Source of the DNA: a virus
IMG/VR virus record: IMGVR_UViG_3300006163_000001
Length of the DNA: 64,000 bases
Reading direction: 5' to 3' (one strand)
Positions within the stretch are counted from its first letter, which is position 1, and each line of letters begins with the position of its first letter. Below the pieces are notes generated by a model, which did not search any database, was not told the DNA's origin, and was given only the letters and a program-made list of their open reading frames with translations. Both the position numbers and the translations under genes were made by a program. Positions 2,990 through 27,625 of the stretch are shown one piece after another.

Positions 2990-3925
2990 CTACTGCTCGG
3001 CGTCGACGAGTTCGGCGTCGTAGGCGCCGTCCTCGTCCGGTCCGACCGCCTCTGCCTTCTTGCGGTCGGCGATTTCCTTGAGGTCGGCGATGAGCTGGTC
3101 GTTGAGGTGGCCTGCGGCGAAAGCGCGGCGGTAGACGTCGCCGACGTCGTCCGGGGTCAGGGCGCCTTCGGCTTCGGCGAGGTAATCCGGGCGGGGCCCC
3201 TCGATCGCAGCCACGGCCCGGCTGCCGCTCGCCGGATCCAGGGCGACTGCGGCGGTCATCGGTCCGGCCAGCGCCTGCCGCGGGGTCACCCCGCGAAGCT
3301 CGACGACCACGACGGGGAACTTCTTCGTCTGGCCGTCGCGGACGACCTGCCGCGGCTCGATCCGCAGCGTCACCGGCACGAAGCCCTTGCCGTCGGTTCC
3401 GGCGAGGACCATGTCGACCATGCCGCCCCACTCCCCTGCGGCGTAGAAGGAGTGGGTCTCGGCCCGCCACATGCCCATGCCGGACAGATCCGGCAGCATC
3501 ACGTTGAGGCGGGACGTGGTGGAGCAGACGGTGCCCTTCTTCTGCTGGTGCCAGTCCTCGCCGAACCGGGCCGCGCAGATGCACGGCTGACGTGAGAGAA
3601 GCTCGGTGTCGCCGTCGCAGCGGCGCTGGCAGCCACCCGCGGACCACATCTCGTTGTACTGATTCAGCGGGTCCCCGGGGGTGATCAGCGCCTCAATCGA
3701 GGACGCCTTGGTGATGACCCGCCACTGGGTGATCGTCGAGTTGAGCGGCTGCCACTGCTCGGGTTCGCCGCCCCACAGTTCGGCCGCGGCGCGGACGTGC
3801 TCCTCGGAATGGGAGGTGACGACCCACGTGGCGGACCGCATGGGCCGCTTGCCCTGGGTGTAGCCGGTGCGGAGGCGGCCGTGCTCGGCGGCACGGGCCT
3901 GAATGTTGCGGAGTCGGGAGCCCAC
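2990..3925 (-). CDS. Hypothetical protein, possible recombination partner of the adjacent exonuclease
   Basis: GTG at 3925 after AAAGGTGG, 3 nt after the exonuclease stop. The function is inferred only from its position next to a RecB/lambda-Exo-like nuclease. Confidence 0.45.
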   Translation of the reverse strand: MGSRLRNIQARAAEHGRLRTGYTQGKRPMRSATWVVTSHSEEHVRAAAELWGGEPEQWQPLNSTITQWRVITKASSIEALITPGDPLNQYNEMWSAGGCQRRCDGDTELLSRQPCICAARFGEDWHQQKKGTVCSTTSRLNVMLPDLSGMGMWRAETHSFYAAGEWGGMVDMVLAGTDGKGFVPVTLRIEPRQVVRDGQTKKFPVVVVELRGVTPRQALAGPMTAAVALDPASGSRAVAAIEGPRPDYLAEAEGALTPDDVGDVYRRAFAAGHLNDQLIADLKEIADRKKAEAVGPDEDGAYDAELVDAEQ

Positions 3926-4773: not shown

Positions 4774-5105
4774 GCGACACCGTCCAGCGGCATCGGGCGG
4801 GCGCAGGCCTCGCACAGGCCGGACGGCACGAACGGCCCGTCGTTCTGCTTGCAGCGGGTGCAGCGCCCAGCCGCGATGTCCTGCAGCCGGTCCACGCCGT
4901 CGGGGTCGTAGTGGATGGCGGTGATCGCGGCCACGTACTCGGGGAACCCGGCGGCCAGCCGGTCGAGGTTGGACGGGTCGGCGGTCCCCATGGCGGTGAG
5001 GAGTGCGGTGGTGAAGGAGCCGGCCTGGTAGCCGCCCTCGCGGCCGTAGTGGAACAGGACGTGCGCTGCGACGTCCGGCGGAATGGTGGGGCTGCTGGTG
5101 CTCAT
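4770..5105 (-). CDS. Hypothetical protein with C-terminal CxxC...CxxC zinc ribbon
   Basis: 111-aa ORF containing RCTRCK...GLCEAC. Confidence 0.6.
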   Translation of the reverse strand: MSTSSPTIPPDVAAHVLFHYGREGGYQAGSFTTALLTAMGTADPSNLDRLAAGFPEYVAAITAIHYDPDGVDRLQDIAAGRCTRCKQNDGPFVPSGLCEACARPMPLDGVA

Positions 5106-5232
5106 GTGTCCTCGTTTCTGGGTGCACTAAGGGCGGGCCCGCTCCGCTGGGCGGGGGGTGCTCCGGCGGAGCGGGCCCTGGATGGCCGCGGCGCACAACG
5201 GGGGGAAAGCGCCAGGCGGCCGGTCTGTGTGG

Positions 5233-5778
5233 CTACTTGGCCTTGGCGGCGAGTGCGGCCCTGACTGCGGCGGTGATCTGGTCGCTGACCTTGTTGCCGA
5301 GCTCGCCGGCGACCATTTCGCGGGCCTGCTTGACGGCGTCGGCGATCTCCGCCCCGAACGCCTTGTGGACCTCGTCGCGCACCAGCTTCTGCAGGACGGT
5401 GCCGTCCTCGCGCCGGTACTTGTCGGCGGGCTCCTTCATGAACTTGCGGGCCTCGTCGACGATGACCTCGGACAGTGTGGTGACCTGCCCGGTGGGTTCG
5501 CCGTAGCCGTTGGTTTTCTTGATGGGCCGGGTTACGGCTTCGACGATGGCGGGGCGGATTGCGGCCCGGATCTCCTCGTCGCGGATCTCGGTGACCCGCT
5601 CTTTGAGGCGCGGGTAACGGTCGTCGCGGACGACGCTGGTGACGATCCGTTCAGCGACCAGGTCGGCGACGGTCTTCTCTCGGCCTGCGGGGACAAGGTC
5701 TCCGTCCTCGTCGTAGCTCATGACGTCTGCGACGACGGTCGAGAGGGTGATGTCGTCGACCTTGATTTCGATGTTCAC
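5233..5778 (-). CDS. Hypothetical protein
   Basis: 181-aa charged ORF with good GC3 in the operon frame. Confidence 0.6.
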   Translation of the reverse strand: MNIEIKVDDITLSTVVADVMSYDEDGDLVPAGREKTVADLVAERIVTSVVRDDRYPRLKERVTEIRDEEIRAAIRPAIVEAVTRPIKKTNGYGEPTGQVTTLSEVIVDEARKFMKEPADKYRREDGTVLQKLVRDEVHKAFGAEIADAVKQAREMVAGELGNKVSDQITAAVRAALAAKAK

Positions 5779-5842
5779 GCGTTCTCCTGGGATGCTTGTT
5801 CGGATCCCCGGGTGTCTGCCGCACTCGGGGATTTTGGGCGGG

Positions 5843-6484
5843 TCAAGCGGCGGTCGGCTCAGCGACCGGCTCGTCGCGCTTTGCGGCCTTCCACGCGTCG
5901 AGTTCGCGGCGGAGTTCGAGGTCGGCGCCTTCGCGACGGATCGGCATCTGCCCGCCGAGGAAGTCGGCGGCGACGATCAGCGACATGCGGCCCTCGCCCG
6001 TCGACCACATCTGGACGGGCTTCGGCAGGTTCTTCCAGGCGCCGAAGAACTTCGGGTCCATGGCCATCTGGGCATCGGCGGCGGGCTTCTCCAGGGCGGG
6101 CAGGAGCAGCTTCCGCCAGTCCAACGGGGCCTTGGTGTACGGGCTGAAGTCGACGGCGACCCGGTGCCCGCGCTTCCCCGAAAGGATCAGCTGGCTGTCG
6201 GTGCGCTCCAGTTGGACGGTGTCCGCGTCGAGGAGGCGCACAGCGGCGGCGAGCTCGGGAATCTGGGTGCGGTGGACGATGGCCGCCCACGGTTCGTCGT
6301 CTCCGCCGGTGACCTGCGTGCGGGCTACGGCGATCGTGTACCGGTTGGTGGCCATGGCGTACAGGTGGCGGCCGTCGTGGTCGAAGGTGATGCACTGGAC
6401 GGCTTCGGCGTCGACCAGGTTCCCGACGTGGGGGCGGGTTTGGGCGACGAGGCGACTGAGGGTGTGGTCGGCGATGGTGATCAC
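5843..6484 (-). CDS. Truncated sliding-clamp-like protein (DnaN paralog, 213 aa)
   Basis: AMATNRYTIAVAR parallels LWATDRYRMAERS in the adjacent DnaN. The C-terminal ...LIVAADFLGGQMPIR resembles the clamp C-terminus ...YRHLVMPVRL. Confidence 0.55.
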   Translation of the reverse strand: MITIADHTLSRLVAQTRPHVGNLVDAEAVQCITFDHDGRHLYAMATNRYTIAVARTQVTGGDDEPWAAIVHRTQIPELAAAVRLLDADTVQLERTDSQLILSGKRGHRVAVDFSPYTKAPLDWRKLLLPALEKPAADAQMAMDPKFFGAWKNLPKPVQMWSTGEGRMSLIVAADFLGGQMPIRREGADLELRRELDAWKAAKRDEPVAEPTAA

Positions 6485-6505
6485 AGCTGGGGTCTCCTGG
6501 GCGGG

Positions 6506-7615
6506 TCAGAGGCGGACGGGCATGACGAGGTGGCGGTAGTCGGTGGTGTCGTCGCCGTCTGCGTGGACGAGGGCCGGCTTGGTGGGCGCGGTGAGTCCGA
6601 TGCGGACCTGTTCGGTGCCGGCGACGGTCAGCGCGTCGAGGATCGGCGCGGGCTGGAAGGCGATCTGCAGCGGCGGCCCGTCGATGTGGCGGCCTTCGAT
6701 GTAGTCGAGGGCGACAGCGCCGGTGTCGTCGCCGGCGGCCCGCACGGAGATGTCGTCGGTGCCGAAGCCGATGAGGATTTTCGGCTTGCCGTCTCCGGCG
6801 ACCAGGCAGGCTCGTTTGATGGCGGTGACTAGGCCGTCGACGGGGATGATCGCCTCGGTGGTGAACTGCTCCGGGATGAACTGGTGCGGGTCGAGGCGTC
6901 CGGTCTCGTCGAGCCGGTCCACGGTCGAGTAGCGGATGCTGTCCGCGACCCCGACGGTCTTTCCGGTCAGGGCGAGGCCGATTGTTCCGGTGAGGCCGCG
7001 GACCGCATCGGCGAGGGACTTGCCTGCGATGAGCGCCCCGACCGGGCCCTGTTCCCGGGCCGGTGTCCACGGGATGGAGCGTTCGGCCATGCGGTAGCGG
7101 TCGGTTGCCCACAGCGTCAGCCGGTCGCCGACGGCGGTGAGTTGTACGCCGGCCCGCCACACCTGCAGGTCGTTGACCTTCGGGTCGGTTGCGGACACGG
7201 TCTGCCGGACGGCCTCGGCGAGTTCTGCGGCGTCGACGGTGCCGTCCGCCTCCAGCTGGTCGGCGACCTGCGGGTAGTCGGCGGCCTGCAGCAGCGACAG
7301 CCGGAACCGGTCCCGGCCTGCGGTGATCTCGGCCTGCTGGTGGTCTGTGGCCAGTTCGAGCAGCTCGGACCGGTAGGAGGCGACGACTTGGGCGGCCATG
7401 CGGCCGGGGACGACGATCCGGCCCGGCTCCAGGACGTCGGCGGGCAGGGTGGCCCGTGCGCCTCCGCCGTGGCTGGCGGCGCCGATGGTGACGGTGTCGT
7501 CGGCGGCGTCGATGAGCAGCCCGGCGAAGATGGGCATGGTGGGTTTGGCGTCCAGCTGGGTGGCGGCCCAGGCGAGGAGGTCGGCGAACTGGCGCCGTGT
7601 GACACGGGCCTTCAC
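6506..7615 (-). CDS. dnaN: DNA polymerase III beta sliding clamp
   Basis: GTG at 7615 after GGAGGAGG. 369 aa with clamp-like three-domain length, an ATDRYR motif and a MPVRL C-terminus. Confidence 0.85.
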   Translation of the reverse strand: MKARVTRRQFADLLAWAATQLDAKPTMPIFAGLLIDAADDTVTIGAASHGGGARATLPADVLEPGRIVVPGRMAAQVVASYRSELLELATDHQQAEITAGRDRFRLSLLQAADYPQVADQLEADGTVDAAELAEAVRQTVSATDPKVNDLQVWRAGVQLTAVGDRLTLWATDRYRMAERSIPWTPAREQGPVGALIAGKSLADAVRGLTGTIGLALTGKTVGVADSIRYSTVDRLDETGRLDPHQFIPEQFTTEAIIPVDGLVTAIKRACLVAGDGKPKILIGFGTDDISVRAAGDDTGAVALDYIEGRHIDGPPLQIAFQPAPILDALTVAGTEQVRIGLTAPTKPALVHADGDDTTDYRHLVMPVRL

Positions 7616-7773
7616 GCCGCCTCCTCCGCTCCGGTGTCGTCGAAGGCGAGCTGGTCGGGGTCGGCGGCTGGCGTCTCCGGCTCGGGCTCCGGGGCGGCGA
7701 CGGGCCAGGGCTGGGGCTGTCCGCTGCCGGTGACGGCGGTGTCGGGGAACAGGGCGAGCTGGGTGGCGTCCAT
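7612..7773 (-). CDS. 53-aa acidic protein with N-terminal QLALF clamp-binding-type motif
   Basis: ATG at 7773 after AGGAG. Sequence MDATQLALFPD...FDDTGAEEEAA. Its stop overlaps the dnaN GTG (GTGA). Confidence 0.55.
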   Translation of the reverse strand: MDATQLALFPDTAVTGSGQPQPWPVAAPEPEPETPAADPDQLAFDDTGAEEAA

Positions 7774-7791
7774 GGCGGTCTCCTGGCAGGG

Positions 7792-8457
7792 TCAGGCGGC
7801 CGTGGCCGCGGAAGGGATGGGGGCGCCGGCCTGTTCGGCGGGGACGTCGTCCATGGCGCGGATCAGCTCGCAGCCGGGGCATTCGCAGCGCCAGCCGTTC
7901 TCGCCACTGCCCTTCTGGCCGTGCTCGGCGTGCAGTCGCTGGCCCTGCTCGGCGACGAACTCGCGCAGCCGCCAGATCTCGTCGCGCTGCTTCTCGACGA
8001 GCTGGATTTCCTGGTTCTGGCGGCGAACATCGGCGAGCTGGCTTTCGCCGCCGCCGAACGCGCCAAGTGGCAGATGTCCGGCCTGATCGGCGGCGGCCTT
8101 CAGTTCACGGGTGAGCTCGACCGGCACCCGCCCGTCAGGCAGTTCGGCCGCGCGATGGATCAGTGCGTTGATTTCGCGGGCGGACTGGGAGACGAGGCTG
8201 TTCAGGTAGATTCCGGCCCAGGCCCGCCTGTCCTCGACGGCCGTGCGTCGGGCCGCGGTGCGGGTGGCGCGCTCGCTCTTCGCTCGGTCCTGCAGCAGGT
8301 TGCTGTAGTTGTTCTCGTGGCGGCGGGACTCCTTCCAGGAGCGGTCCACCTCGTTGAGGAGTACCTCGACGTCGCTCAGGCCGGTGACGTTGTCGCCGAG
8401 TCGGGCATGCTCTTCACGTAGGGCGGCGACACGCTCGGCGGCGGATGTGTTGGTCAT
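7792..8457 (-). CDS. Coiled-coil protein with C-terminal CxCxxC
   Basis: ATG at 8457 (the track ORF begins at a TTG at 8466), with GGAGG upstream. Confidence 0.6.
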   Translation of the reverse strand: MTNTSAAERVAALREEHARLGDNVTGLSDVEVLLNEVDRSWKESRRHENNYSNLLQDRAKSERATRTAARRTAVEDRRAWAGIYLNSLVSQSAREINALIHRAAELPDGRVPVELTRELKAAADQAGHLPLGAFGGGESQLADVRRQNQEIQLVEKQRDEIWRLREFVAEQGQRLHAEHGQKGSGENGWRCECPGCELIRAMDDVPAEQAGAPIPSAATAA

Positions 8458-8569
8458 TGCGGGCAACCTCCGTGGGATGCTGGTGGTGGATCCCCGTCGA
8501 CTTCACCTCGACGGGGGTTTCTTCTTGGGCGCCGCCTCGCCGACCGGTGGCATCCGGCGCGGCGGCTAG

Positions 8570-9025
8570 TCAGTGGGTGGCGATGTGCCCGGGGTCGGTG
8601 ACGGGCCCGAGGAGTCCGGCGTCGCGGGCTTCCCAGAGGGCGGTCACGTTGATCGGCCCGGTCGCCTGGTCTTCGATCGCGCTGGTGTCGCGGACCATGG
8701 GCGGCACGTCGACGCGGGCCGCGTTGGCTTCGGCGGCGAGCTGGGGTCCGAAGCGGGCCTGCAGTTGCAGGGCGCGGTCCCGCCACTCGTTGCGGTCGGT
8801 GGTGAGTTCGTCGATGTCGGCCTGCTGCTGCACGACGATGAGTTCGGCGTCGCCCTGCCTGGTCCGGGCTTCGTCGAGGTCTTGGCGAAGGAGTGCGACC
8901 TCGTCTCCCGCGGCGTGCAGGTTGCTGAGGAGGATGACGTTCTCCCGGCGGAGCTCGGCCACCTTGTCGACGGCGCGGCGGCTGCCGGATCCCCGCAGGC
9001 CGGGGATGAGTTCGGTGAGTGTCAC
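8570..9025 (-). CDS. Coiled-coil hypothetical protein
   Basis: 151-aa ORF with heptad-like charged repeats. Confidence 0.6.
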   Translation of the reverse strand: MTLTELIPGLRGSGSRRAVDKVAELRRENVILLSNLHAAGDEVALLRQDLDEARTRQGDAELIVVQQQADIDELTTDRNEWRDRALQLQARFGPQLAAEANAARVDVPPMVRDTSAIEDQATGPINVTALWEARDAGLLGPVTDPGHIATH

Positions 9026-9120
9026 TGCTGTCCCTTCCGGGCTTGGATGCGGGCGGCGATGTACTCGCCGAACAGGAGGAGGAAGACGGCCCCGGCGATC
9101 AGGAGCGCGTTGAGGATCAC
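9022..9120 (-). CDS. Small membrane peptide (32 aa)
   Basis: VILNALLIAGAVFLLLFGEYIAARIQ..., with GTGA coupling. Confidence 0.35.
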   Translation of the reverse strand: MILNALLIAGAVFLLLFGEYIAARIQARKGQQ

Positions 9121-9338
9121 GGCGCCTCCAGTCCGAGCGCGGCGAGGAGTTCGAGGACCCCGGCGGCCACTGCCGGGTCTTTGGCGATGAGCCGGCCGGA
9201 CAGGCGCGGCATGCAGTCGTCCAGCGGGTGCGGGTGTTCGGCGGCGACCCGGTCGGCGCAGTGCACGGCCGCGGCCCGGCGGACGGCTGCCGTGAGGTCG
9301 CCGACGACGAGGGCCTCCTGCTTCAGCTCGGAGCCCAT
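9117..9338 (-). CDS. Hypothetical protein (73 aa)
   Basis: ATG at 9338, in the operon frame. Confidence 0.5.
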   Translation of the reverse strand: MGSELKQEALVVGDLTAAVRRAAAVHCADRVAAEHPHPLDDCMPRLSGRLIAKDPAVAAGVLELLAALGLEAP

Positions 9339-14290: not shown

Positions 14291-15574
14291 ATGGCCAGAC
14301 GAGCGCGAGACGTCTACGTCGAATGGCGCGGCGGCACATGCCGCGTGAAGTGGTGGACCGGCGAGTACCACGACGACGGCCGCAAACGCTTCGAGTCCAA
14401 GGGCGGCTTCACCGACGAGGACGAAGCCTACGACTACGGCCTCGACAAGATGAGCGAGATCCGGCACGGCACTGGGGTCTCCAACCGCGACGGCGCCACC
14501 CTCATGACGGACTGGATCGAGGACTGGTTCGCGGCCACGGACCACACCTATACGACACACAAGAGCTACAAGGCCATCATCAACAAGCACATTCGCCCGT
14601 ACTTCCGCGGCAAGACCGTCGGCGAGGTCGACGTCATCGCCTACCGGGCCTTCCGGATGCACATCCAGAAGAAGCTGCCGGCGGCGGGAAGCGTGCGCAA
14701 CGTCATGATGGTGCTGAATATGATCCTCGACGATGCGGTTCCCCGACTCATCAAGGTTTCGCCCGTCGAGCGCAAGCGGCAGCGCGGCCGGTACGTCAAG
14801 AAGACGCAGCGGGAACGCAAGCGGGACATGGACATCGCCGCCGTCGACCAGCTGGCACGCAACGCCGAGGTCGTCTTCGGCTACCCGGGCTACGTCATGA
14901 TGTGGACGATGGCCGTGACCGGCATGCGGCCTGGCGAGCTCTTCGGCCTGCGCCGCGAGTACTGCTACCCCAACTGGCCGGCCAACGACCCCCGCCCGGA
15001 TCCGGATGAACAGGAACGGTACGAGGACGACGTGCTCCGCTACGGCAAGGGTGAAGGGCTCATGCCGGCCATTCGCGTGCAGCAGCAGGTGCAGCAGGAG
15101 AAGGGGCGACTGGCTGAAGTGCCGCCGAAGTACTTCTCCTACCGGACGCTGGTGGTACCTCAGTTCCTGGCGGACATGCTGGAGAAGCTGCTGGCCTCGC
15201 ACGACAGGCAGTGGGTCTTCCCTGCCATCGAGGGCGGATGCTTGGGGACGGCACGGTTCTCGGCCGACTACTGGCCGCCCATCTCGCAGGGCGCCGAGGA
15301 GCGCAAGAAGGTCCGCGGCGGACGGAATCAGCGGCCCGTGATTCCTGTCGTGCCCGACTTCGACGGCAAGCGCATGTACTTGCTCAGGCACGGCCACAAG
15401 GCATGGCTGGACGAGGACGGGCACAGCCGGTTCGCGGTGGAGTCCCGGATGGGCCACGAGGTGCCGGGAGTTGAGGGCACGTACAGCAGCGTGACCGTGC
15501 CGATGGAGCGTGCGATTATGGCGGCGCTGCAGGAGCGCTGGGAGAGGCACCAGGAGGACCGAGACGGCTCCTGA
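14291..15574 (+). CDS. int: Tyrosine integrase
   Basis: ATG at 14291 after AAGGGGG. C-terminal catalytic pattern LRHGHKAWL...MGHEVPGVEGTYSS (R..HxxR..Y) and an N-terminal SAM-like domain. Confidence 0.9.
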   Translation: MARRARDVYVEWRGGTCRVKWWTGEYHDDGRKRFESKGGFTDEDEAYDYGLDKMSEIRHGTGVSNRDGATLMTDWIEDWFAATDHTYTTHKSYKAIINKHIRPYFRGKTVGEVDVIAYRAFRMHIQKKLPAAGSVRNVMMVLNMILDDAVPRLIKVSPVERKRQRGRYVKKTQRERKRDMDIAAVDQLARNAEVVFGYPGYVMMWTMAVTGMRPGELFGLRREYCYPNWPANDPRPDPDEQERYEDDVLRYGKGEGLMPAIRVQQQVQQEKGRLAEVPPKYFSYRTLVVPQFLADMLEKLLASHDRQWVFPAIEGGCLGTARFSADYWPPISQGAEERKKVRGGRNQRPVIPVVPDFDGKRMYLLRHGHKAWLDEDGHSRFAVESRMGHEVPGVEGTYSSVTVPMERAIMAALQERWERHQEDRDGS

Positions 15575-19300: not shown

Positions 19301-19843
19301 TCAGATGTCGAGGATGATCCCGAGGCTCATCAGGCGGTAGCTCATCGCGGCGGAGCTCACCTCAAAGCGCGGGGCCAGCAAGTCGACCAGCTGCGCGGCC
19401 GTGTCGAAGTCCGCCTCTCGCGCCATACGCCGGACCGCCCCCTCTGGCATCAACAGGGCGCCAGCGAATCGGTTCGCCTCCGCCTCCTCGCGATCCGTCG
19501 GCATGCACAACAGGTTGCCGTGCCGATGTCGGGCCATTCCGTCGAGGATGAGTTCCCGGCGCCGATGAATCTTGAGGTGCCCCACGAGGTGAGCCAGGGC
19601 GAACCGCTCACCGGCAGTACCCAGGTTTGCGTTCAGGCCGATCACGAGTTGCCCGTCGCGTCGCAGCAGCATGCCCGATACATCGTTGTCGGTTGGATGC
19701 CGCGCGACTGTGGCGCCCAGTTCCCGGGCGACCTTCTCGGGGTCGACCGGTAGATCCGCCAGGGCGAACTCGGCTACGAACTCGCGGGCGGCGACGTCGG
19801 CTCTGGACACAGCCCCTCCCTCCCACGGCAACAACCCCAGCAT
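19301..19843 (-). CDS. ImmA/IrrE-family (M78) peptidase-like protein with HLVGH in place of HExxH
   Basis: GERFALAHLVGHLKIH...EEAEANRFAGALLMPEGAV. The family signature is present but the catalytic Glu is replaced by Leu. Confidence 0.7.
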   Translation of the reverse strand: MLGLLPWEGGAVSRADVAAREFVAEFALADLPVDPEKVARELGATVARHPTDNDVSGMLLRRDGQLVIGLNANLGTAGERFALAHLVGHLKIHRRRELILDGMARHRHGNLLCMPTDREEAEANRFAGALLMPEGAVRRMAREADFDTAAQLVDLLAPRFEVSSAAMSYRLMSLGIILDI

Positions 19844-19854
19844 AAGATCCCCCA

Positions 19855-20076
19855 GTGCCTCACACGTTCGAAGACCTCGTGACCCTGGAGCGGGCCGCGG
19901 TCGACGCCCTCGCCGCCATCGCCACCGCCGACGACCCCGACACGGCGCGGGCTGCGGCCGTCGACGCCGCAGCTGCGTTCCAGGCCGCCGTCACCCAATA
20001 CGCGGCAGACAAAAACGAGTCGCGGGTTGAGGTGGAGATGCGGGCCAAGCGGGCCGTGCGGCACGGGGAGGGTTAG
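19855..20076 (+). CDS. Hypothetical Ala-rich protein (73 aa)
   Basis: ORF with high GC3. Confidence 0.4.
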   Translation: MPHTFEDLVTLERAAVDALAAIATADDPDTARAAAVDAAAAFQAAVTQYAADKNESRVEVEMRAKRAVRHGEG

Positions 20077-20246
20077 CGGCGCCGTCCACCTTCAGCCTCG
20101 ACCTGGCGGGCGCGGTCGTACATGTCCCGGGCTGGCTTCGCCTCGACCGGAGCGAGGAGCCCATGCATGGCGAGCGTGTTCGACAGATAGAGGAGCGCAT
20201 CCTCCAGCTCCTTCACCCGCGCCCGCAGCGCGTCGACCTCGTCCAC
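20073..20246 (-). CDS. Hypothetical coiled-coil peptide (57 aa)
   Basis: GTG after GGAGGGG. VDEVDALRARVKELEDALLYL...; below the ORF-track cutoff. Confidence 0.3.
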   Translation of the reverse strand: MDEVDALRARVKELEDALLYLSNTLAMHGLLAPVEAKPARDMYDRARQVEAEGGRRR

Positions 20247-20638
20247 GGCCCCTCCAAGTTCGAGGCCCCGCCCGGCATCACTCGGGCGGGGCAGCGCGTG
20301 CAGCCATGCAGCGCGGATGTGATGGGGCCAGCCTACTGGCGGGGACCGACAGCTCCGGCTACAGCGTCACGAGTCGGATCCCGGCGAGGCCCGGCCCCAC
20401 GCGACGGAGGCCGTACTGCGGGCCAGTCCTCAATACCTCAGCCAGCTCACGCATGGCCTGGGCGGCGTCACGAATCTTCTCTGCGGTGGTCTTTTCCATG
20501 CCGCCAGCATGGCAGACGTCACCCGTCCTGCGGCCACTCGTCGAGGGTTTCGTCGGTCTCCTCGTCGACGAGCGTCACCCGGGCATCCGCCATGCTGCAC
20601 GGGGCGGCCGGCGGAGAAGAGGGTGACGTGGAAGTGGG

Positions 20639-20860
20639 TCACGTCAGCCGGATCCCTCGCGGCCGGCCGGGTTCGCGGACGATCGCGCCCTTGGTCTCCA
20701 GTTCCCGCAGCTGGTAGTGGACGCTGCCGACCGCCAGGCCCACGGCGGCGCAGATCTCCTTCACCGTCGGCGCCTCACCGTCATCGACGATCGCCCGGCG
20801 GATGACGTGCAGGATGCGCTCCTGGGTTTCGGTCAGGTAGTCGACCTTGTAGCGGACCAT
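20639..20860 (-). CDS. LexA N-terminal DNA-binding-domain-only protein (73 aa)
   Basis: LTETQERILHVIRRAIVDDGEAPTVKEICAAVGLAVGSVHYQLRELETKGAIVRE. No S24 peptidase domain. Confidence 0.7.
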   Translation of the reverse strand: MVRYKVDYLTETQERILHVIRRAIVDDGEAPTVKEICAAVGLAVGSVHYQLRELETKGAIVREPGRPRGIRLT

Positions 20861-20868
20861 GCAGGCAT

Positions 20869-20884
20869 TAGAGCGCGTGTTCGA
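20869..20884. promoter_or_regulatory. SOS-box-like imperfect palindrome
   Basis: TAGAGC-GCGT-GTTCGA compared with the actinobacterial TCGAAC-N4-GTTCGA. It lies 9 nt upstream of the LexA-like start codon. Confidence 0.4.
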
Positions 20885-20972
20885 ATTATGGGGCAAGTCG
20901 GCAGGCAGCAGAACGCCCGGTCCGACGGGGGTGACAGACCGGGCGCACGGTCAGCATGGCAGAAGGAGACGA

Positions 20973-21989
20973 CTACAGGCCGATGTCCTCGGATGCGGCG
21001 TCGGTCCATTTGTCGGCTTCGCGGATGTAGCCCCAGAAGGCGGGGCTGTTGGCGGCATGCCCGGACTGAGCGCGGATCTTCTCCTCGCGCTTCCCGGCTC
21101 GGCGGCTGGTGGTGATGAACCCGGCTCGCATGCTGTGCCCGGTCAGCCGTACCGACAGGCCGGCGCGTTCGGCGTTGCGGGCGATGATCTCGCGGACGGC
21201 TTCCGGGGAGAGCGCGCGGTCGCCGATCCGACCGTGGACAGTGATGGGCAGGAAGGCGGGCCCGCCGGTGATTCCGGCGGCCGCGCGCCAGGTCGACCAG
21301 GCGCGGACGGGGCAAGTGTCGGGGTCCTTGCCGTAGGCGACGACGACGTCCCGGGGCGGCCGCCCTTTCACCGCGGGGACGTGGACGTCGAGTCCTTGGC
21401 TGACGAGGCTGATGCCGTCGGCGGTTAGGGCGGCGACTTCGGCGGAGCGTCCGGCGATGCCGAAGGCCATGAGCCAGAGCGCCCGGTCGCGGAGTCCGGT
21501 GAGTCCGGCGGCCGCGGCCGCGCTCATCTTGCGGAGTTGGTCTGGGGTGGCGGCGGCCGCCGGTCCGCGGCCGCGGGCTTGGCGTTCGGGGTTGGCCTTC
21601 ATCGGCTTGAGGGCCTGCCGCGCTGCAACGGTCACGGCCTTGGGGACTTCGATGCCGCGGCCGCGAAGGGTGACGGTGACGCCGGTGATGCGCCGGTCGA
21701 TCGAGTTGGGCGCGGCCGCCTTGATGGTGTCGAGCCAGACGACGAACCCAACGAGGGTGCCCTTGGTGACGGCGGTCAACGGCAACGGCTGCCCGGTACG
21801 TTCGGCGAGCCAGTCGTGGAACTCCTCCCAGAGCGCCCAGTCGTTGGCGTAGCTGCGTTTGGTGTTGTGGGGGCGGATGGCGTCGAGGTGCTTCTCGGCT
21901 GCCTCTTCCATGGCGGCCAGGACAGCGAGTGTCGCAGCGTCGTAGGCGGCGGGGGTGGCGTCCGGCTGGCGGGGGACGAGGTCGGTCAT
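20973..21989 (-). CDS. Tyrosine recombinase (Cre/XerD-like, 338 aa)
   Basis: ATG at 21989 (ATGA overlap). Contains RSYANDWALWEEF (core-binding domain), GRSAEV, GHSMRAGF and FWGYI (Tyr). Confidence 0.85.
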   Translation of the reverse strand: MTDLVPRQPDATPAAYDAATLAVLAAMEEAAEKHLDAIRPHNTKRSYANDWALWEEFHDWLAERTGQPLPLTAVTKGTLVGFVVWLDTIKAAAPNSIDRRITGVTVTLRGRGIEVPKAVTVAARQALKPMKANPERQARGRGPAAAATPDQLRKMSAAAAAGLTGLRDRALWLMAFGIAGRSAEVAALTADGISLVSQGLDVHVPAVKGRPPRDVVVAYGKDPDTCPVRAWSTWRAAAGITGGPAFLPITVHGRIGDRALSPEAVREIIARNAERAGLSVRLTGHSMRAGFITTSRRAGKREEKIRAQSGHAANSPAFWGYIREADKWTDAASEDIGL

Positions 21990-22369
21990 GCCGACGCCTC
22001 GTTTTCGGAAGCCTCGTCGGCCATGCGGCGCAGCAGGTCGGCGGCGTCCATGACTCCGCCGTTCCATGCGTCGCGGTAGGTGTCGTAGCCGTAGTCGTTG
22101 CAGTCGGTGTCGTAGTCCATGCGACCGAGCTGGTCGGCAGCCTCGCGCAGCACGGCAGCCCGCCCGTCACTCGCGGGTAGCAGGCCCAGCCGCCGAGCCA
22201 CGGGGTCCTGGTCGAGAGGCGGAAGCGCCGGGTCTCGACCGGCCAGCGCCCTCACGATCTCGAACTGCCCCTCGATCGCCTCCCGCTGCTCCGGCGGCAA
22301 ACTCGACAGGTCCGGCTCGGGGCCGAGGCCGCGCAGGAACCGCAGGTACTCCTCGATCAGGTCAAGCAT
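21986..22369 (-). CDS. Hypothetical protein (127 aa)
   Basis: Coupled to the recombinase. Confidence 0.55.
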   Translation of the reverse strand: MLDLIEEYLRFLRGLGPEPDLSSLPPEQREAIEGQFEIVRALAGRDPALPPLDQDPVARRLGLLPASDGRAAVLREAADQLGRMDYDTDCNDYGYDTYRDAWNGGVMDAADLLRRMADEASENEASA

Positions 22370-22427
22370 CGGATGCTCCTTCGGGAGGCCGACTGCCCCG
22401 CGAACAGGACAGCCGGGGGTGGGGTGG

Positions 22428-23165
22428 TCAGCGGGCTGGTGGTGCGATGTGGTCGTCCATCAACTGGACGGTGACGGTGCCGTCTGCCTCGGCCAGGTAC
22501 TCGTCGAGGAGGCCGCGGTGATGACGGCGGCAGCCGAACCGAAGCCGCCAACGGCCCTCGACCTGAAAGCGGTAGCGGTAGTCCCCGTCATGGCCGCCCC
22601 CGCCAAGCACGCCCGCGCTGCCGCCGCCGCAGGGCCGGTAGGTGCCTACCGGGTAGCGGGCGAGAGTGCGGCGCTGCACGAAGTTGTGGCCGTCCTCGTA
22701 CAGGGCGCAGTCCCCGTCGTGGGCCAGGCAGACGATCGCGTACTCGGGTAGCCACTCATCGACGGTCAGCCGGTCACCGAGCGGCATACGGCCGGGCTGG
22801 ACGAACTCGTTGAGGACACGCACGGCCCGCTCCCACGAACCCGACATCTCGCGCACCCCGGCCGGTTCGCCGACGATCCCCTGCTGGACGGTCCATTCCG
22901 AGCTGAGGCGACCGGGCGCTGCAACCCACAGGGCGTGCCGGGTGTCGCCGTGCTGGTAGGAGATCCGCAGGGCGTGACCGCGCATGGCGTGGAGTTGGGC
23001 GCCGGTGAGCGTGGGCCCGAGGTGGCGGCTGGTGATCGGCCAGCCGGTAGGCGGCTGGGGTGCAGGGCGCGGGGTGTTGCATGCGGCGAGTGCGGCGCGG
23101 GCGCCCTCAATGAACGCGGCGGCCTCGGGATCCACGGTCACGAGACTCTGCGGGCTGAGGGTCAC
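22428..23165 (-). CDS. Hypothetical protein (245 aa)
   Basis: GTG in a GTGA overlap with the upstream ORF. No motif recognised. Confidence 0.6.
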   Translation of the reverse strand: MTLSPQSLVTVDPEAAAFIEGARAALAACNTPRPAPQPPTGWPITSRHLGPTLTGAQLHAMRGHALRISYQHGDTRHALWVAAPGRLSSEWTVQQGIVGEPAGVREMSGSWERAVRVLNEFVQPGRMPLGDRLTVDEWLPEYAIVCLAHDGDCALYEDGHNFVQRRTLARYPVGTYRPCGGGSAGVLGGGGHDGDYRYRFQVEGRWRLRFGCRRHHRGLLDEYLAEADGTVTVQLMDDHIAPPAR

Positions 23166-23368
23166 GTGGAGTCTCCTTCGCGGACGACCTCTGGCTTGTA
23201 CAGGAACTGGTAGAGGGCTTGTTGGAGGTTGAGGAAGTCCAGCCCGTTGGTGATCTCCGGGTAGCCGTGGGCTTGCAGGACGTCGGCAACGTCCTTGGCG
23301 AGGCCGAACGTGAACCGCAGGTCGTCGTCGGGAGCGGGGCTGATGGGGTACTGGCGCAGGGCGGTCAT
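23162..23368 (-). CDS. Hypothetical protein (68 aa)
   Basis: First gene of the leftward operon from the divergent promoter hub. Confidence 0.5.
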   Translation of the reverse strand: MTALRQYPISPAPDDDLRFTFGLAKDVADVLQAHGYPEITNGLDFLNLQQALYQFLYKPEVVREGDST

Positions 23369-23402
23369 TGAGGTCTCCGTTCAGGGCCAGTTGCCGAATC
23401 GT

Positions 23403-23452
23403 GGTGGCTTGCCACCATGATTGCGCACACCTTTGACCGGTGGCAAGCCACC
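23403..23452. promoter_or_regulatory. Operator pair: GGTGGCTTGCCACC / GGTGGCAAGCCACC
   Basis: Two copies of the 14-bp palindrome at 23403 and 23439, each followed by CATGATT(G)CGCACA. They lie between divergent genes. Confidence 0.65.
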
Positions 23453-23467
23453 TGCCATGATTCGCAC

Positions 23468-23701
23468 ATGACCAGCGAAGAGGAACGCCGCCGACAGCAC
23501 CGCCACCGGCACAAGCAGCGCGTGCTGCGCGGAATCGACGACGACCTGGTCAACGACTTCGACGCCGCCGCCCACGCAGCAGGCAGCGACCGCAGCCGCA
23601 TCACGCGACAGTTGTGGGAATGGTTTGCCAGACGGCCCGGAGCGGAGCTACCTGAGCGGCCGGAGCAACCTCAGGCCGAGTCGGACAATCCCCCCAAATA
23701 A
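23468..23701 (+). CDS. Ribbon-helix-helix regulator (paralog 1)
   Basis: KQRVLRGIDDDLVNDFDAAAHAAGSDRSRITRQLWEWFARRPGAELPERP. About 55% identical to the 63188..63391 product. Confidence 0.7.
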   Translation: MTSEEERRRQHRHRHKQRVLRGIDDDLVNDFDAAAHAAGSDRSRITRQLWEWFARRPGAELPERPEQPQAESDNPPK

Positions 23702-23799
23702 TGCCCGCGATATGGCATGTTATCGAGAGCCGTTCCGCACGATCGGGGTCAGCCGGCGCAGGGCTGGGCTACCGTGAACCCAGCGCGCTTCCCAGCGGC

Positions 23800-23839
23800 A
23801 CGACGCCCCGCCCCTACCTCGACAGGAGCGGGGCGTCGT
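23800..23839 (+). terminator. Hairpin terminator after RHH paralog 1
   Basis: CGACGCCCCGC...GCGGGGCGTCG, an 11-bp stem. Confidence 0.55.
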
Positions 23840-23894
23840 CGCGTCTGCGGGCAGGGCGCACCCAAGGGAACGTTATGCGCTAGCCACACCCTTG

Positions 23895-23930
23895 CATGTC
23901 CATCACTGGACATGTACCGTACTGGACATG
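23895..23930 (+). promoter_or_regulatory. TGGACATG operator-like repeats
   Basis: CATGTCCA-TCAC-TGGACATG inverted repeat plus a third TGGACATG that overlaps the start codon at 23928. Confidence 0.5.
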
Positions 23931-24521
23931 ACGCGACAGACCAGTGCACCCCTCGAACACCTGAGCCTGAACGCGGCCGACCGCCAAGCCCGCGAGATCG
24001 CCCGCTCGTTCACCGAGTTCGGCCTCGACCTCAACCCGCCCTACCAGCGCGGCCGAGTCTGGACCGAGGACCAGCAGATCGCCCTCATCCGGTCGTGGCT
24101 CACCGGCACCCCCACCGGAGTAGTCATCTTCAACGACCGCTGCACGCCCGAGTGGAAGGACGCCAACGGCTACGACCCTGCCGAGCGCGACGAGGCTATC
24201 TACGCGTGCATCGACGGCCAGCAGCGCATCAGCGCCGCCCGCGCCTGGTTCGGTGATGAGCTCGCGGTGCCCGTCTCGTGGTTCGCCCCCGAGGACGTCG
24301 CGCAGACCGAAGACACCGACGACGGCCCCTACGTCCGGTGGAGCGGACTCACCCTCCCCCGGCAGCGGCACTTCGCCAACCGGGCGCACCTCACCGTCGC
24401 GACCGCCCGCGTCGCCACGGTGCAGGACGAGGCCGCGATCTACCTCCTCGTCAACGGCGGCGGTACCCCGCAGACCGATGCCGACATGCAGAACGCGGCC
24501 GACGTGGCGGCGCAGCGATGA
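23928..24521 (+). CDS. DUF262/ParB-like nuclease-superfamily protein (standalone, 197 aa)
   Basis: PPYQRGRVWTEDQQIALIRSW and CIDGQQRISA (DGQQR signature). No DUF1524/HNH partner domain. Confidence 0.7.
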   Translation: MTRQTSAPLEHLSLNAADRQAREIARSFTEFGLDLNPPYQRGRVWTEDQQIALIRSWLTGTPTGVVIFNDRCTPEWKDANGYDPAERDEAIYACIDGQQRISAARAWFGDELAVPVSWFAPEDVAQTEDTDDGPYVRWSGLTLPRQRHFANRAHLTVATARVATVQDEAAIYLLVNGGGTPQTDADMQNAADVAAQR

Positions 24522-27445: not shown

Positions 27446-27625
27446 CGGCGACTGAACACGGGAGGCTGGCGAGTACCAGGCGCGCGAGCTACGTAAGCGC
27501 TCTAGCCAACTGAGCTACACCGACCGAGGTCGGCGACAGGACTCGAACCTGCGACCTCTCGCTTAACAGGCGAAGTAGGCCCGCACTGCGCTTCGTCAGC
27601 CACCCGTATCCAGTTGTCGTCCCCG
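27446..27625 (-). ncRNA. Y-RNA-like RNA A (YrlA-type: terminal stem plus circularly permuted tRNA-Asn-like core)
   Basis: Terminal stem in the same register as unit B but with a different sequence (GGCTGACG/CGCCAGCC, ATAC/GTGT, CAACTGG/TCAGTCG). Core at 27498-27575: hairpin with a CUGUUAA loop, T arm GCAGG-TTCGAGT-CCTGT, acceptor CGCCGAC/GTCGGTG closed by CTCG, and a D arm GCTC-AGTTGGCTA-GAGC. Confidence 0.7.

What the first reader, a model, noticed from the sequence alone, without database searches (positions are those of the whole stretch)
5843..7773. Sliding-clamp module: phage dnaN, a truncated clamp-like paralog, and a coupled 53-aa QLALF peptide
Seen: a 369-aa DnaN (GTG at 7615 after GGAGGAGG) is followed by a 213-aa ORF that repeats clamp hallmarks (ATNRYTIAV compared with ATDRYRMAE; a C-terminal ...MPIR compared with ...MPVRL). 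Immediately upstream is a 53-aa acidic ORF that begins MDATQLALFPD and whose stop overlaps the dnaN start (GTGA). Established: QL[SD]LF / QLxLF is the consensus beta-clamp-binding motif, and some phages make small proteins that target the host clamp. Inference: the peptide could occupy the hydrophobic cleft of the host or phage clamp. That would let it act as an inhibitor of host replication, a selectivity factor, or a loader or adaptor. The half-size paralog could form hetero-rings or act as a decoy.
Basis: partly seen in the sequence, partly recalled or inferred. Interest (0 to 1): 0.65.

Follow-up and report, generated by a model that had tools for sequence, protein, structure and literature searches.

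The report
Clamp-binding micro-protein coupled to phage dnaN
A Streptomyces temperate phage carries its own DNA sliding clamp gene, and directly in front of it a conserved 53-residue acidic peptide whose first residues are a textbook clamp-docking motif; this gene pairing recurs across many related prophages and appears undescribed, while the neighbouring "half clamp" belongs to a separate, already noted phage family.

Summary
All three ORFs exist as described. The 369-aa ORF is a true three-domain DnaN. The 213-aa ORF has a beta-clamp fold: a full domain II-like domain plus a reduced domain III-like part. The 53-aa ORF starts MDATQLALF, has its own Shine-Dalgarno site, and its stop overlaps the dnaN start.

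The new result is comparative. In 25 of 32 actinobacterial viral contigs with a related dnaN, the ORF abutting the dnaN start carries a Qxx[L]F motif. Usually this is a 38-72 aa, strongly acidic peptide with the motif in its first 11 residues. Across 57 distinct peptides Q is 93% and L 96% conserved, followed by a second shared segment (P-x3-hydrophobic-x3-G-x3-P-x-P). Synonymous codon changes show selection on the protein. The dnaN genes are only 30-50% identical, and peptide subtype does not follow dnaN lineage.

The 213-aa protein is not part of this unit. Most of its relatives lie in loci without dnaN, and short domain II+III clamp homologues in phages were reported in 2011.

Best reading: a disordered clamp-cleft ligand, probably a competitor or adaptor acting on a conserved host-side partner. 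Binding itself is untested; a fused AlphaFold2 model was inconclusive.

The parts
7612..7773 (-). 53-aa acidic micro-protein (net charge about -11.5) with an N-terminal clamp-binding motif. Its stop TGA (7614-7612) overlaps the dnaN start.
   Evidence: GC3 0.94. 22 close homologues and 36 clusters at 50% identity in 1.84 billion proteins, almost all 45-79 aa. No Pfam, PHROGs or NCBIfam family.
7779..7784 (-). Shine-Dalgarno-like AGGAGA, 5 nt upstream of the peptide's ATG.
   Evidence: Read from the sequence. Comparable purine-rich sites precede the peptide ATG in related loci.
7747..7761 (-). Motif 1: QLALF (residues 5-9), the canonical beta-clamp-binding pentapeptide.
   Evidence: Invariant in 22 close homologues. 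Q 93% and L 96% conserved over 57 distinct peptides. Synonymous codon variation: CAG/CAA, CTG/CTC/TTG, TTC/TTT. Consensus Q1L2(S/D)3L4F5 from PMC6204406.
7702..7743 (-). Motif 2: DTAVTGSGQPQPWP (residues 11-24), a second conserved segment shared by both peptide subtypes (type B: LSALQTEGYAQPEPR).
   Evidence: V14-G18 and P22-P24 are invariant in close homologues. Relative to the F of motif 1: hydrophobic at +5 in 94%, G at +9 in 95%, P at +13 in 81%, P at +15 in 70% of 57 peptides.
7636..7656 (-). Motif 3: DQLAFDD (residues 40-46), an acidic [DE][QE]L[AP]F[DE] element of type A peptides. It may be a weaker second clamp motif or a mimic of the SSB tail.
   Evidence: Q41, A43 and F44 are at least 90% conserved. 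It recurs as ELPFDE, QLPFDS or QLTFDE in distant type A peptides. Two full motifs are present in L058 and L050.
6506..7615 (-). Phage-encoded DnaN beta sliding clamp, 369 aa, starting at GTG after GGAGGAGG (7620-7627).
   Evidence: The cleft-forming strands ATDRYRM and LVMPVRL are retained.
5843..6484 (-). 213-aa short clamp-fold protein: a domain II-like domain, a reduced domain III-like part ending in the conserved DFxGxQMPxR, and a C-terminal helix. It belongs to a separate family and is only adjacent here.
   Evidence: AF2 pLDDT 84, pTM 0.79. Foldseek top hits are beta clamps in the PDB (TMq up to 0.67, E about 1e-8) and short phage 'sliding clamp' proteins in BFVD (TMq 0.73-0.74). Pfam PF02767 is weak here (E 7.5e-4) but 8e-11 in a long-form relative.

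Best explanation
The 53-aa ORF encodes a real, intrinsically disordered, strongly acidic micro-protein that binds the hydrophobic cleft of beta sliding clamps. It docks through its N-terminal Q-L-A-L-F motif. A second conserved segment (residues 11-24) and, in this subtype, an acidic QLAF element provide further contacts.

It travels with a phage-borne dnaN as a two-gene unit. Peptide subtype does not track dnaN lineage, and the phage clamps have diverged to about 30% identity while the peptide core is kept. The partner of the conserved core is therefore most likely invariant across these phages. That would be the generic clamp cleft plus a conserved host-side surface, either the host's own clamp or another host replisome protein.

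The most likely action is competitive occupation of clamp clefts. This would displace host clients while the phage supplies its own clamp for replication by host Pol III; no polymerase gene was found among the window proteins that were scanned.

Shown: the ORF, the motif, its protein-level conservation and its linkage to dnaN. Inferred: clamp binding, the host-side partner and the competitive effect.

The 213-aa protein is a separate short clamp-fold protein. It keeps both strands that wall the clamp's peptide pocket and usually lies near recombination genes.
For: - **ORF and motif.**
- **Linkage to dnaN.** A small ORF overlapping the dnaN start (GTGA, ATGA or TGATG) and carrying N-terminal Qxx[L]F was found in all 9 dnaN-bearing loci recovered through the 213-aa protein. 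It was found in 25 of 32 viral contigs recovered through dnaN, and in two further genomic contexts.
- **Background rate.** About 1e-4 per residue.
- **Conservation across 57 peptides.** Q 93%, L 96%, then P, a hydrophobic residue, G, P, P at fixed spacing. Median length 51 aa, median charge -8.5.
- **Protein-level selection.** Synonymous changes occur inside conserved codons. dN/dS is about 0.2-0.3 in the core of close pairs, against about 1 or more in the tail.
- **No tracking of dnaN lineage.** The dnaN lineages are 30-50% identical. The L073 peptide is 72% identical to the window's, but its dnaN is 33% identical to the window's and 83% identical to a dnaN paired with a type B peptide.
- **Clamp client at this position.** In L053 and L055 the same position holds a MazG-like protein ending in QLTLF, which fits a clamp client encoded 5' of dnaN.
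- **Cleft kept.** Phage DnaNs retain the cleft strands.
- **Precedents.** The motif and pocket between domains II and III (PMC6204406). Twort gp168 and G1 gp240 target DnaN (PMC3594737). MuC uses two clamp motifs (PMC12867686).
Against: - No binding data exist.
- An AlphaFold2 model of the peptide fused to DnaN left residues 1-18 below pLDDT 50 and also modelled domain I poorly, so it neither supports nor refutes docking.
- The phage clamp keeps canonical cleft strands. A generic motif should bind it as well as the host clamp, and nothing found here would make the phage clamp immune.
- Seven of 32 dnaN loci, and the Arthrobacter and Mycobacterium phage dnaN loci, lack such a peptide.
- All peptide-bearing loci are high-G+C actinobacterial prophages. 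The 25 loci are therefore not independent observations.
- Gene overlap is common throughout this operon, so coupling says little about interaction.
Confidence: 0.55

Rival explanations
1. Adaptor or client of the phage's own clamp. The peptide docks on the cognate phage DnaN and uses motifs 2 and 3 to tether or regulate another factor at phage replication forks, or it masks the phage clamp's cleft until the clamp is loaded.
For: - Strict adjacency to, and overlap with, dnaN.
- The same position is sometimes filled by larger proteins with a C-terminal motif: MazG-like in L053 and L055, zinc-finger-like in L051.
- Three conserved short motifs suggest more than one partner.
Against: - Peptide subtype does not co-vary with dnaN lineage.
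- No conserved phage-encoded third partner was found. The 213-aa gene is present in only 7 of 32 dnaN loci, and upstream neighbours vary.
- The fused AlphaFold2 model gave no confident docking.
Confidence: 0.22
2. Clamp-dependent transcription co-activator. Like T4 gp33 or Mu MuC, the small acidic protein would link DNA-loaded clamps to RNA polymerase, so that late genes are transcribed only from replicating phage DNA.
For: - MuC uses an N-terminal and a C-terminal clamp motif, and T4 gp33/gp55 use gp45 (PMC12867686).
- This peptide is small and acidic and, in type A, carries two motif-like elements.
Against: - No DNA-binding or RNAP-binding domain fits in 40-60 disordered residues.
- Type B peptides lack the second motif.
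- No family match was found.
- It would not explain why the peptide is tied to a phage-borne dnaN and absent from related phages that lack one.
Confidence: 0.1
3. Leader ORF only. The small ORF would exist to couple or tune translation of dnaN, and its amino-acid sequence would have no function of its own.
For: - The stop and start overlap in every case.
- The last residues (E/A-A-A) are dictated by the dnaN ribosome-binding site.
- The tail evolves nearly neutrally.
Against: - The N-terminal 20 residues, far from the dnaN start, are the conserved part.
- Conservation is at the amino-acid level, with synonymous changes.
- The conserved residues match a known binding motif exactly.
Confidence: 0.06

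Closest known systems
Canonical beta-clamp-binding motif clients (Pol III alpha, Pol II/IV/V, Hda, MutS/L, delta): Q1-L2-(S/D)3-L4-F5
   Same: QLALF fits the pentapeptide. It sits in a terminal, disordered stretch, as does Hda's N-terminal motif (own knowledge for Hda). L4-F5 and Q1 are the most conserved positions, which matches the subsite 1 and subsite 2 contacts described in PMC6204406.
   Different: Known clients are enzymes or regulators with folded domains. This protein is 40-60 disordered residues with no domain, is encoded by a phage, and is always placed just 5' of a phage dnaN.
Staphylococcus phage Twort gp168 and G1 gp240 (host DnaN-targeting replication shut-off proteins)
   Same: They are small phage proteins that act on the sliding clamp (PMC3594737).
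   Different: No sequence relationship was detected: PHROGs gave no hit. Those phages are lytic. The proteins are not reported to be coupled to a phage-borne dnaN (own knowledge).
Phage Mu MuC and T4 gp33/gp55 (clamp-dependent late transcription)
   Same: MuC has two clamp-binding motifs, one at each end, and overproducing it is toxic through interference with the clamp (PMC12867686). The type A peptide has QLALF plus QLAF.
   Different: MuC is a DNA-binding activator and gp33 binds the RNAP flap. No such domain is present here.
Clamp inhibitor plus second dnaN copy in antibiotic gene clusters (griselimycin/griR, mycoplanecin/mypR)
   Same: A peptide ligand of the clamp cleft is encoded next to an extra, divergent dnaN (PMC10817943).
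   Different: Those ligands are non-ribosomal cyclic peptides, and the extra DnaN is a resistance determinant. Here the ligand is a ribosomal micro-protein, and resistance of the phage clamp has not been shown.
Short phage polIII-beta homologues covering domains II and III (Kazlauskas & Venclovas 2011); Gordonia phage Lamberg gp43, Horus, Rhodococcus phage REQ2
   Same: The 213-aa ORF has this architecture and fold. Like Lamberg gp43, it lies near RecE/RecT-type genes.
   Different: It is only 24% identical to the cultured-phage examples. The Streptomyces family also has 330-400 aa forms with a helical C-terminal extension.

Membership tests
Beta sliding clamp DnaN (TIGR00663; Pfam PF00712 + PF02767 + PF02768) | Three clamp domains in order, over the full length | tested here: met
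   All three Pfam domains are above their cut-offs. phrog_947 matches residues 1-369.
Beta sliding clamp DnaN (TIGR00663; Pfam PF00712 + PF02767 + PF02768) | Score above the curated equivalog cut-off | tested here: met
   143.7 bits against a cut-off of 137.65.
Beta sliding clamp DnaN (TIGR00663; Pfam PF00712 + PF02767 + PF02768) | Peptide-binding cleft strands (E. coli T172-L177 and V360-L366) retained | tested here: met
   TDRYRM and LVMPVRL align to these positions.
Beta sliding clamp DnaN (TIGR00663; Pfam PF00712 + PF02767 + PF02768) | Head-to-tail dimeric ring loaded by a clamp loader | not testable with these tools
   No multimer modelling or biochemistry was available.
Clamp-binding-motif ligands (QL[SD]LF / QxxLF) | Pentapeptide with Q1, L4 and F5 | tested here: met
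   QLALF at residues 5-9. Consensus from PMC6204406.
Clamp-binding-motif ligands (QL[SD]LF / QxxLF) | Motif conserved in homologues while flanking sequence drifts | tested here: met
Clamp-binding-motif ligands (QL[SD]LF / QxxLF) | Motif lies in an exposed, flexible terminal region | tested here: met
   It is within the first 6-15 residues. The peptide has no predicted secondary structure and low pLDDT in the fused model.
Clamp-binding-motif ligands (QL[SD]LF / QxxLF) | Physical binding in the cleft between domains II and III | tested here: inconclusive
   In the fused peptide-DnaN AlphaFold2 model, residues 1-18 have pLDDT below 50 and domain I is poorly modelled. No coordinates or multimer tool were available.
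Short phage polIII-beta homologues (domains II+III) | N-terminal domain homologous to beta domain II (PF02767) | tested here: met
   E 7.5e-4 for the window protein. Family profile against PDB clamps: residues 2-93 match 135-225, E 1.6e-4. E 8e-11, above the cut-off, for a long-form relative.
Short phage polIII-beta homologues (domains II+III) | Clamp fold without domain I | tested here: met
   AF2 pLDDT 84. Foldseek best hits are beta clamps and 200-270 aa phage 'sliding clamp' proteins. The second domain is reduced to three strands and two short helices.
Short phage polIII-beta homologues (domains II+III) | Ring formation or processivity function | not testable with these tools
   Oligomeric state is unknown. 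pI 6.3 and net charge -2 give no sign of a strongly basic DNA-binding face.
Twort gp168 / G1 gp240 host-clamp inhibitors | Sequence homology | tested here: not met
   No PHROGs family matches the peptide at E up to 0.01. A direct pairwise comparison was not possible because those sequences were not at hand.
Twort gp168 / G1 gp240 host-clamp inhibitors | Arrest of host replication on expression | not testable with these tools
   Needs an experiment.
MuC / gp33-type clamp-dependent transcription activators | A domain that binds DNA or RNA polymerase in addition to clamp motifs | tested here: not met
   The protein is 53 aa with no domain hit in Pfam, PHROGs or NCBIfam.

The most novel reading that the evidence does not exclude
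The peptide and the phage dnaN form a 'block and replace' pair for taking over the replisome. The multi-motif peptide would clamp onto both clefts of the conserved host beta ring (QLALF plus QLAF/QLALF) and, through motif 2, onto an adjacent host-specific surface. This would shut host clients such as Pol III, repair polymerases and NucS out of the host clamp. The highly divergent phage clamp would escape the extra contacts and carry phage replication. This would be a ribosomally made, phage-borne counterpart of the griselimycin/GriR logic.
Probability: 0.22. Interest if true: 0.8.

Novelty: new variant of a known kind. Interest (0 to 1): 0.58.

Why it matters
**Open question addressed.** Many temperate actinophages carry a dnaN but no polymerase, and the reason is unknown. 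A conserved clamp-docking micro-protein welded to that dnaN gives a concrete, testable handle on how such phages re-wire the host replisome.

**Practical value.** The beta-clamp cleft is a validated antibiotic target in mycobacteria (griselimycin, mycoplanecin). A natural family of more than 50 diverse ribosomal cleft ligands could inform peptide inhibitor design. This is especially so for motif 2, an extension conserved beyond the pentapeptide.

**Annotation.** The peptide belongs to no Pfam, PHROGs or NCBIfam family, and where sources name it at all it is 'hypothetical protein'. The PHROGs label 'RusA-like resolvase' for the short clamp family should be corrected.

Tried and rejected
- **DNA search (blastn).** Searching 5000-9000 against 50,697 phage records found nothing. 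No close cultured relative exists.
- **dnaN alone as a query.** It found no confirmed relatives in viral contigs and only three distant cellular clamps in the genome collection. Alignments as queries were needed.
- **Arthrobacter and Mycobacterium phage dnaN loci.** I checked them for an equivalent peptide. None is present; the upstream genes are HTH or unrelated proteins.
- **Profile comparison of the 213-aa family with the adjacent DnaN.** The result was marginal (probability 5.5%). The idea of a recent truncated paralogue was rejected, and fold evidence was used instead.
- **PHROGs label 'RusA-like Holliday junction resolvase' for the 213-aa family.** Rejected as an annotation artefact. The same Gordonia phage genes are called 'DNA polymerase III sliding clamp' in GenBank and 'RusA-like' only in the RefSeq copies.
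- **A dedicated motif-bearing partner for the 213-aa protein.** I searched the loci without dnaN. Motif frequency was at background.
- **Fused peptide-DnaN AlphaFold2 model.** Inconclusive.
- **Programmed -1 frameshift fusing the peptide to DnaN.** Considered, but no slippery site is evident, and the overlaps vary (GTGA, ATGA, TGATG), which fits simple coupling.
- **Other scans.** A promoter and terminator scan of 5000-9200 showed nothing above shuffled expectation. The literature searches found no description of this peptide family.
Full report
**1. What is in the sequence**

The window is 68.5% G+C and carries the genes of a temperate siphovirus-type actinophage.
- A large terminase at 52270-53889, related to more than 2,000 actinophage terminases.
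- A 1,759-aa ORF at 36785-42064; I read it as a tape-measure gene from its size and position, without a family search.
- An integrase at 14291-15574.
- A minus-strand early operon running from about 13238 down to 171.

Close homologues of the three proteins come from Streptomyces genomes and soil metagenomes.

- **53-aa ORF (7612-7773):** MDATQLALFPDTAVTGSGQPQPWPVAAPEPEPETPAADPDQLAFDDTGAEEAA. AGGAGA lies 5 nt before its ATG. Its TGA overlaps the GTG of the next gene.
- **369-aa ORF (6506-7615):** preceded by GGAGGAGG.
- **213-aa ORF (5843-6484).**

No sigma-70-type promoter or convincing terminator separates them.

**2. The 369-aa protein is a genuine DnaN**

- It matches all three Pfam clamp domains.
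- It passes the TIGR00663 equivalog cut-off.
- It matches the phage processivity-factor PHROG end to end.
- Its best solved relatives are actinobacterial clamps (8dj6, E 8e-47).
- The two strands that wall the peptide-binding pocket (E. coli T172-L177 and V360-L366) are present as TDRYRM and LVMPVRL.

None of the window proteins I scanned matched a DNA polymerase, primase or helicase family; the scans covered most of the early operon and some other ORFs, not the whole window. The phage therefore presumably uses host Pol III. This is an inference.

**3. The 213-aa protein has a clamp fold but belongs to a separate family**

*Fold*
- With 49 homologues, AlphaFold2 gives pLDDT 84 and pTM 0.79.
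- Residues 1-113 form a complete clamp domain with two helices and eight strands.
- Residues 120-185 form a reduced second domain, followed by a helix.
- Foldseek puts bacterial beta clamps on top in the PDB (E about 1e-8, TMq up to 0.67).
- In BFVD the best hits are short phage proteins annotated as sliding clamps: Rhodococcus phage REQ2 (266 aa) and Gordonia phage Horus (238 aa), with TMq 0.73-0.74.

*Sequence*
- The N-terminal domain is a beta domain II homologue. In a 336-aa relative it passes Pfam's cut-off (E 8e-11).
- The family keeps AT[ND]R[YF]T and an invariant DFxGxQMPxR across forms of 190-400 aa.
- These two elements correspond to the two pocket-lining strands of real clamps. The pocket lies between domains II and III (PMC6204406). 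The family may therefore retain a peptide-binding cleft; this is an inference.

*Prior description and labelling*
- Kazlauskas and Venclovas reported in 2011 that 5 of 12 phage polIII-beta homologues cover only domains II and III (PMC3201878).
- The PHROGs label 'RusA-like resolvase' is an artefact. The same Gordonia phage genes are 'DNA polymerase III sliding clamp' in GenBank.

*Independence from dnaN*
- 30 of 39 viral-contig loci encoding a relative have no dnaN within 4 kb.
- Only 7 of 32 dnaN loci have it downstream.
- Its usual company is recombination genes: YqaJ/RecT, DUF3799, Cas4-like exonuclease, RecE/RecT.

So the three genes are not one module.

**4. The peptide-dnaN pair is the conserved unit**

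*Close homologues.* Twenty-two close homologues of the peptide exist, each called as a gene by other pipelines. In them M1, QLALF, VTGSG and PWP are invariant, and DQLAF is nearly so, while the linker varies.

*Distant loci*
- All nine dnaN-bearing loci recovered through the 213-aa protein have a 40-62 aa ORF overlapping the dnaN start and carrying N-terminal QLALF, QLNLF, QPALF, QDALF, QPLF or DQLF.
- A survey seeded with an alignment of those dnaN genes returned 32 usable viral contigs. In 25 of them the abutting upstream ORF carries the motif.
- In 22 of the 25 it is a 38-72 aa peptide with the motif in the first 11 residues.
- In the other three the motif ends a larger protein: MazG-like with ...QLTLF in L053 and L055, and zinc-finger-like with ...RLTLFP in L051.
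- Two more genomic contexts fetched through peptide homologues show the same arrangement.
- An exhaustive profile search of 1.84 billion representative proteins found 36 clusters, almost all stand-alone proteins of 45-79 aa.

*Consensus over 57 distinct peptides*
- Q at -4 from the F in 93%, L at -1 in 96%, P at +1 in 72%.
- A hydrophobic residue at +5 in 94%, G at +9 in 95%, P at +13 in 81%, W or E at +14, P at +15 in 70%.
- The F itself was the anchor of the alignment, so its 100% is by construction.
- Two subtypes share this core. Type A reads ...AVTG[ST]G.P.PWP and has a C-terminal [DE][QE]L[AP]F[DE]. Type B reads ...LSALQTEGYAQPEPR.
- All are strongly acidic, with a median charge of -8.5.
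- The last residues (E/A-A-A) are fixed by the dnaN ribosome-binding site.

*Controls*
- The motif occurs at about 1e-4 per residue elsewhere.
- Conserved codons carry synonymous changes: CAG/CAA, CTG/CTC/TTG, TTC/TTT.
- dN/dS in the core of close pairs is about 0.2-0.3, against about 1 or more in the tail. These estimates come from very short sequences and are noisy.
- dnaN loci of Arthrobacter and Mycobacterium phages lack the peptide.

**5. What the pattern says about mechanism**

- The motif is the canonical clamp-binding pentapeptide. L4-F5 enter subsite 1 and Q1-L2 enter subsite 2 of the pocket (PMC6204406). The conserved positions are exactly those residues.
- The partner dnaN genes fall into several lineages only 30-50% identical to each other.
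- Peptide subtypes have been exchanged between these lineages at least three times:
  - The window (type A) and L049 (type B) have dnaN genes 59% identical.
  - L073 (type A) and L080 (type B) have dnaN genes 83% identical.
  - L070 (type A-like) and L069 (type B) fall in the same dnaN cluster (at least 55% identity); the same two contigs gave 68%.
- A conserved 20-residue core facing clamps this divergent argues that whatever reads motif 2 is constant across these phages. That means the generic cleft plus a host-side surface. Streptomyces chromosomal DnaN is highly conserved (own knowledge).
- A peptide with no folded domain can only occupy or bridge.
- Several members carry two motifs: QLALF plus QLAF here, QPALF plus QLALF in L058, and QLELF plus QLELP in L050. 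This would suit the two clefts of a dimeric ring.

I therefore favour a competitive cleft ligand that acts on clamp traffic while the phage brings its own clamp.

Precedents:
- Twort gp168 and G1 gp240 target DnaN (PMC3594737).
- MuC uses two clamp motifs, and its overproduction is lethal (PMC12867686).
- Clamp-inhibitor gene clusters carry a second dnaN (PMC10817943).

Rival readings are an adaptor for the phage clamp, a gp33/MuC-like transcription co-activator, and a functionless leader ORF. The first two remain open. The third is contradicted by protein-level conservation far from the dnaN start.

**6. Limits**

- Binding was not shown. A fused peptide-DnaN AlphaFold2 model left the motif below pLDDT 50 and modelled domain I poorly, so it is uninformative.
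- The phage clamp keeps a canonical cleft, so selectivity between host and phage clamps is unexplained.
- The loci are phylogenetically related. The counts overstate independent support, although the dnaN divergence shows the association is old.
- The role of the 213-aa protein is open: ring, decoy or adaptor. One speculative link is to clamp-dependent NucS mismatch repair in Actinobacteria (PMC6159515, listed), given the neighbouring recombination genes.

**7. Verdict**

- Observation: confirmed.
- Interpretation: partly supported.
- The peptide-dnaN pairing is a real, conserved and apparently undescribed variant of clamp-targeting by phages.
- The 'half clamp' is a member of a known but uncharacterised phage family.

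Noticed in passing
window 25586-27214 (-) and 27496-27600 (-): A 542-aa TROVE/Ro60-like protein (PF05731, E 5e-17) lies inside the phage. Just 5' of it is a sub-threshold Y RNA-like YrlA match (27496-27559, 36.4 bits against a gathering score of 69, E 2.3e-5), overlapping a tRNA-like match at 27528-27600. Together these look like a phage-borne Ro60 / Y RNA-like module.
   Followed up: partly
window 2990-3925 (-) and 14291-15574 (+): A Gp3-like recombination directionality factor (PF18897, E 2e-38) is present, a family known from phiC31-type serine-integrase phages (own knowledge). The integrase here looks tyrosine-type (Phage_int_SAM_3, phrog_1). The Gp3-like protein may therefore have another primary role in the early, replication-related operon.
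   Followed up: no
window 19301-24521: The region between the integrase and the structural genes holds an IrrE/M78 peptidase (19301-19843), a second tyrosine-recombinase-like ORF (20973-21989, just below the Pfam cut-off) and a GmrSD_N-like ORF (23928-24521). This may be a defence or moron island.
   Followed up: no
L053 and L055 (ORF ending at about 2504); L051: In some related prophages the gene abutting dnaN is a protein of about 126 aa that looks MazG-like by eye and ends in ...QLTLF. In L051 it is a zinc-finger-like protein ending in ...RLTLFP. Clamp-docking motifs can thus be appended to larger clients at the same position.
   Followed up: partly
window 8570-9025 (-); L009, L016, L018, L013 upstream of the short clamp gene: A coiled-coil protein family of 125-157 aa with a conserved C-terminal ...FGPQLAAEANA.RV.VPPMVRDTSA.EDQATGPI recurs just upstream of the short clamp gene, or of the peptide-dnaN pair. 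It has no family match. In L009 the peptide-dnaN pair sits exactly between this gene and the short clamp gene, as if inserted as a cassette.
   Followed up: partly
PHROG phrog_12598; Gordonia phages Lamberg, Bjanes7, Ebert (H49-H65): The short clamp family is labelled 'RusA-like Holliday junction resolvase' in PHROGs and in RefSeq copies. The same genes are labelled 'DNA polymerase III sliding clamp' in the GenBank records. This is likely propagated mis-annotation.
   Followed up: yes
L043 4726-5112; L017, L032, L035 (ORFs of about 70 aa): A few loci without dnaN encode proteins with clamp-motif-like sequences near the short clamp gene...PPGQLTLFPRDG in a 128-aa protein, and ...Q[IL]ELFANDPDNHRKE near the C-terminus of proteins of about 70 aa. 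Overall the motif frequency in these loci is at background.
   Followed up: partly
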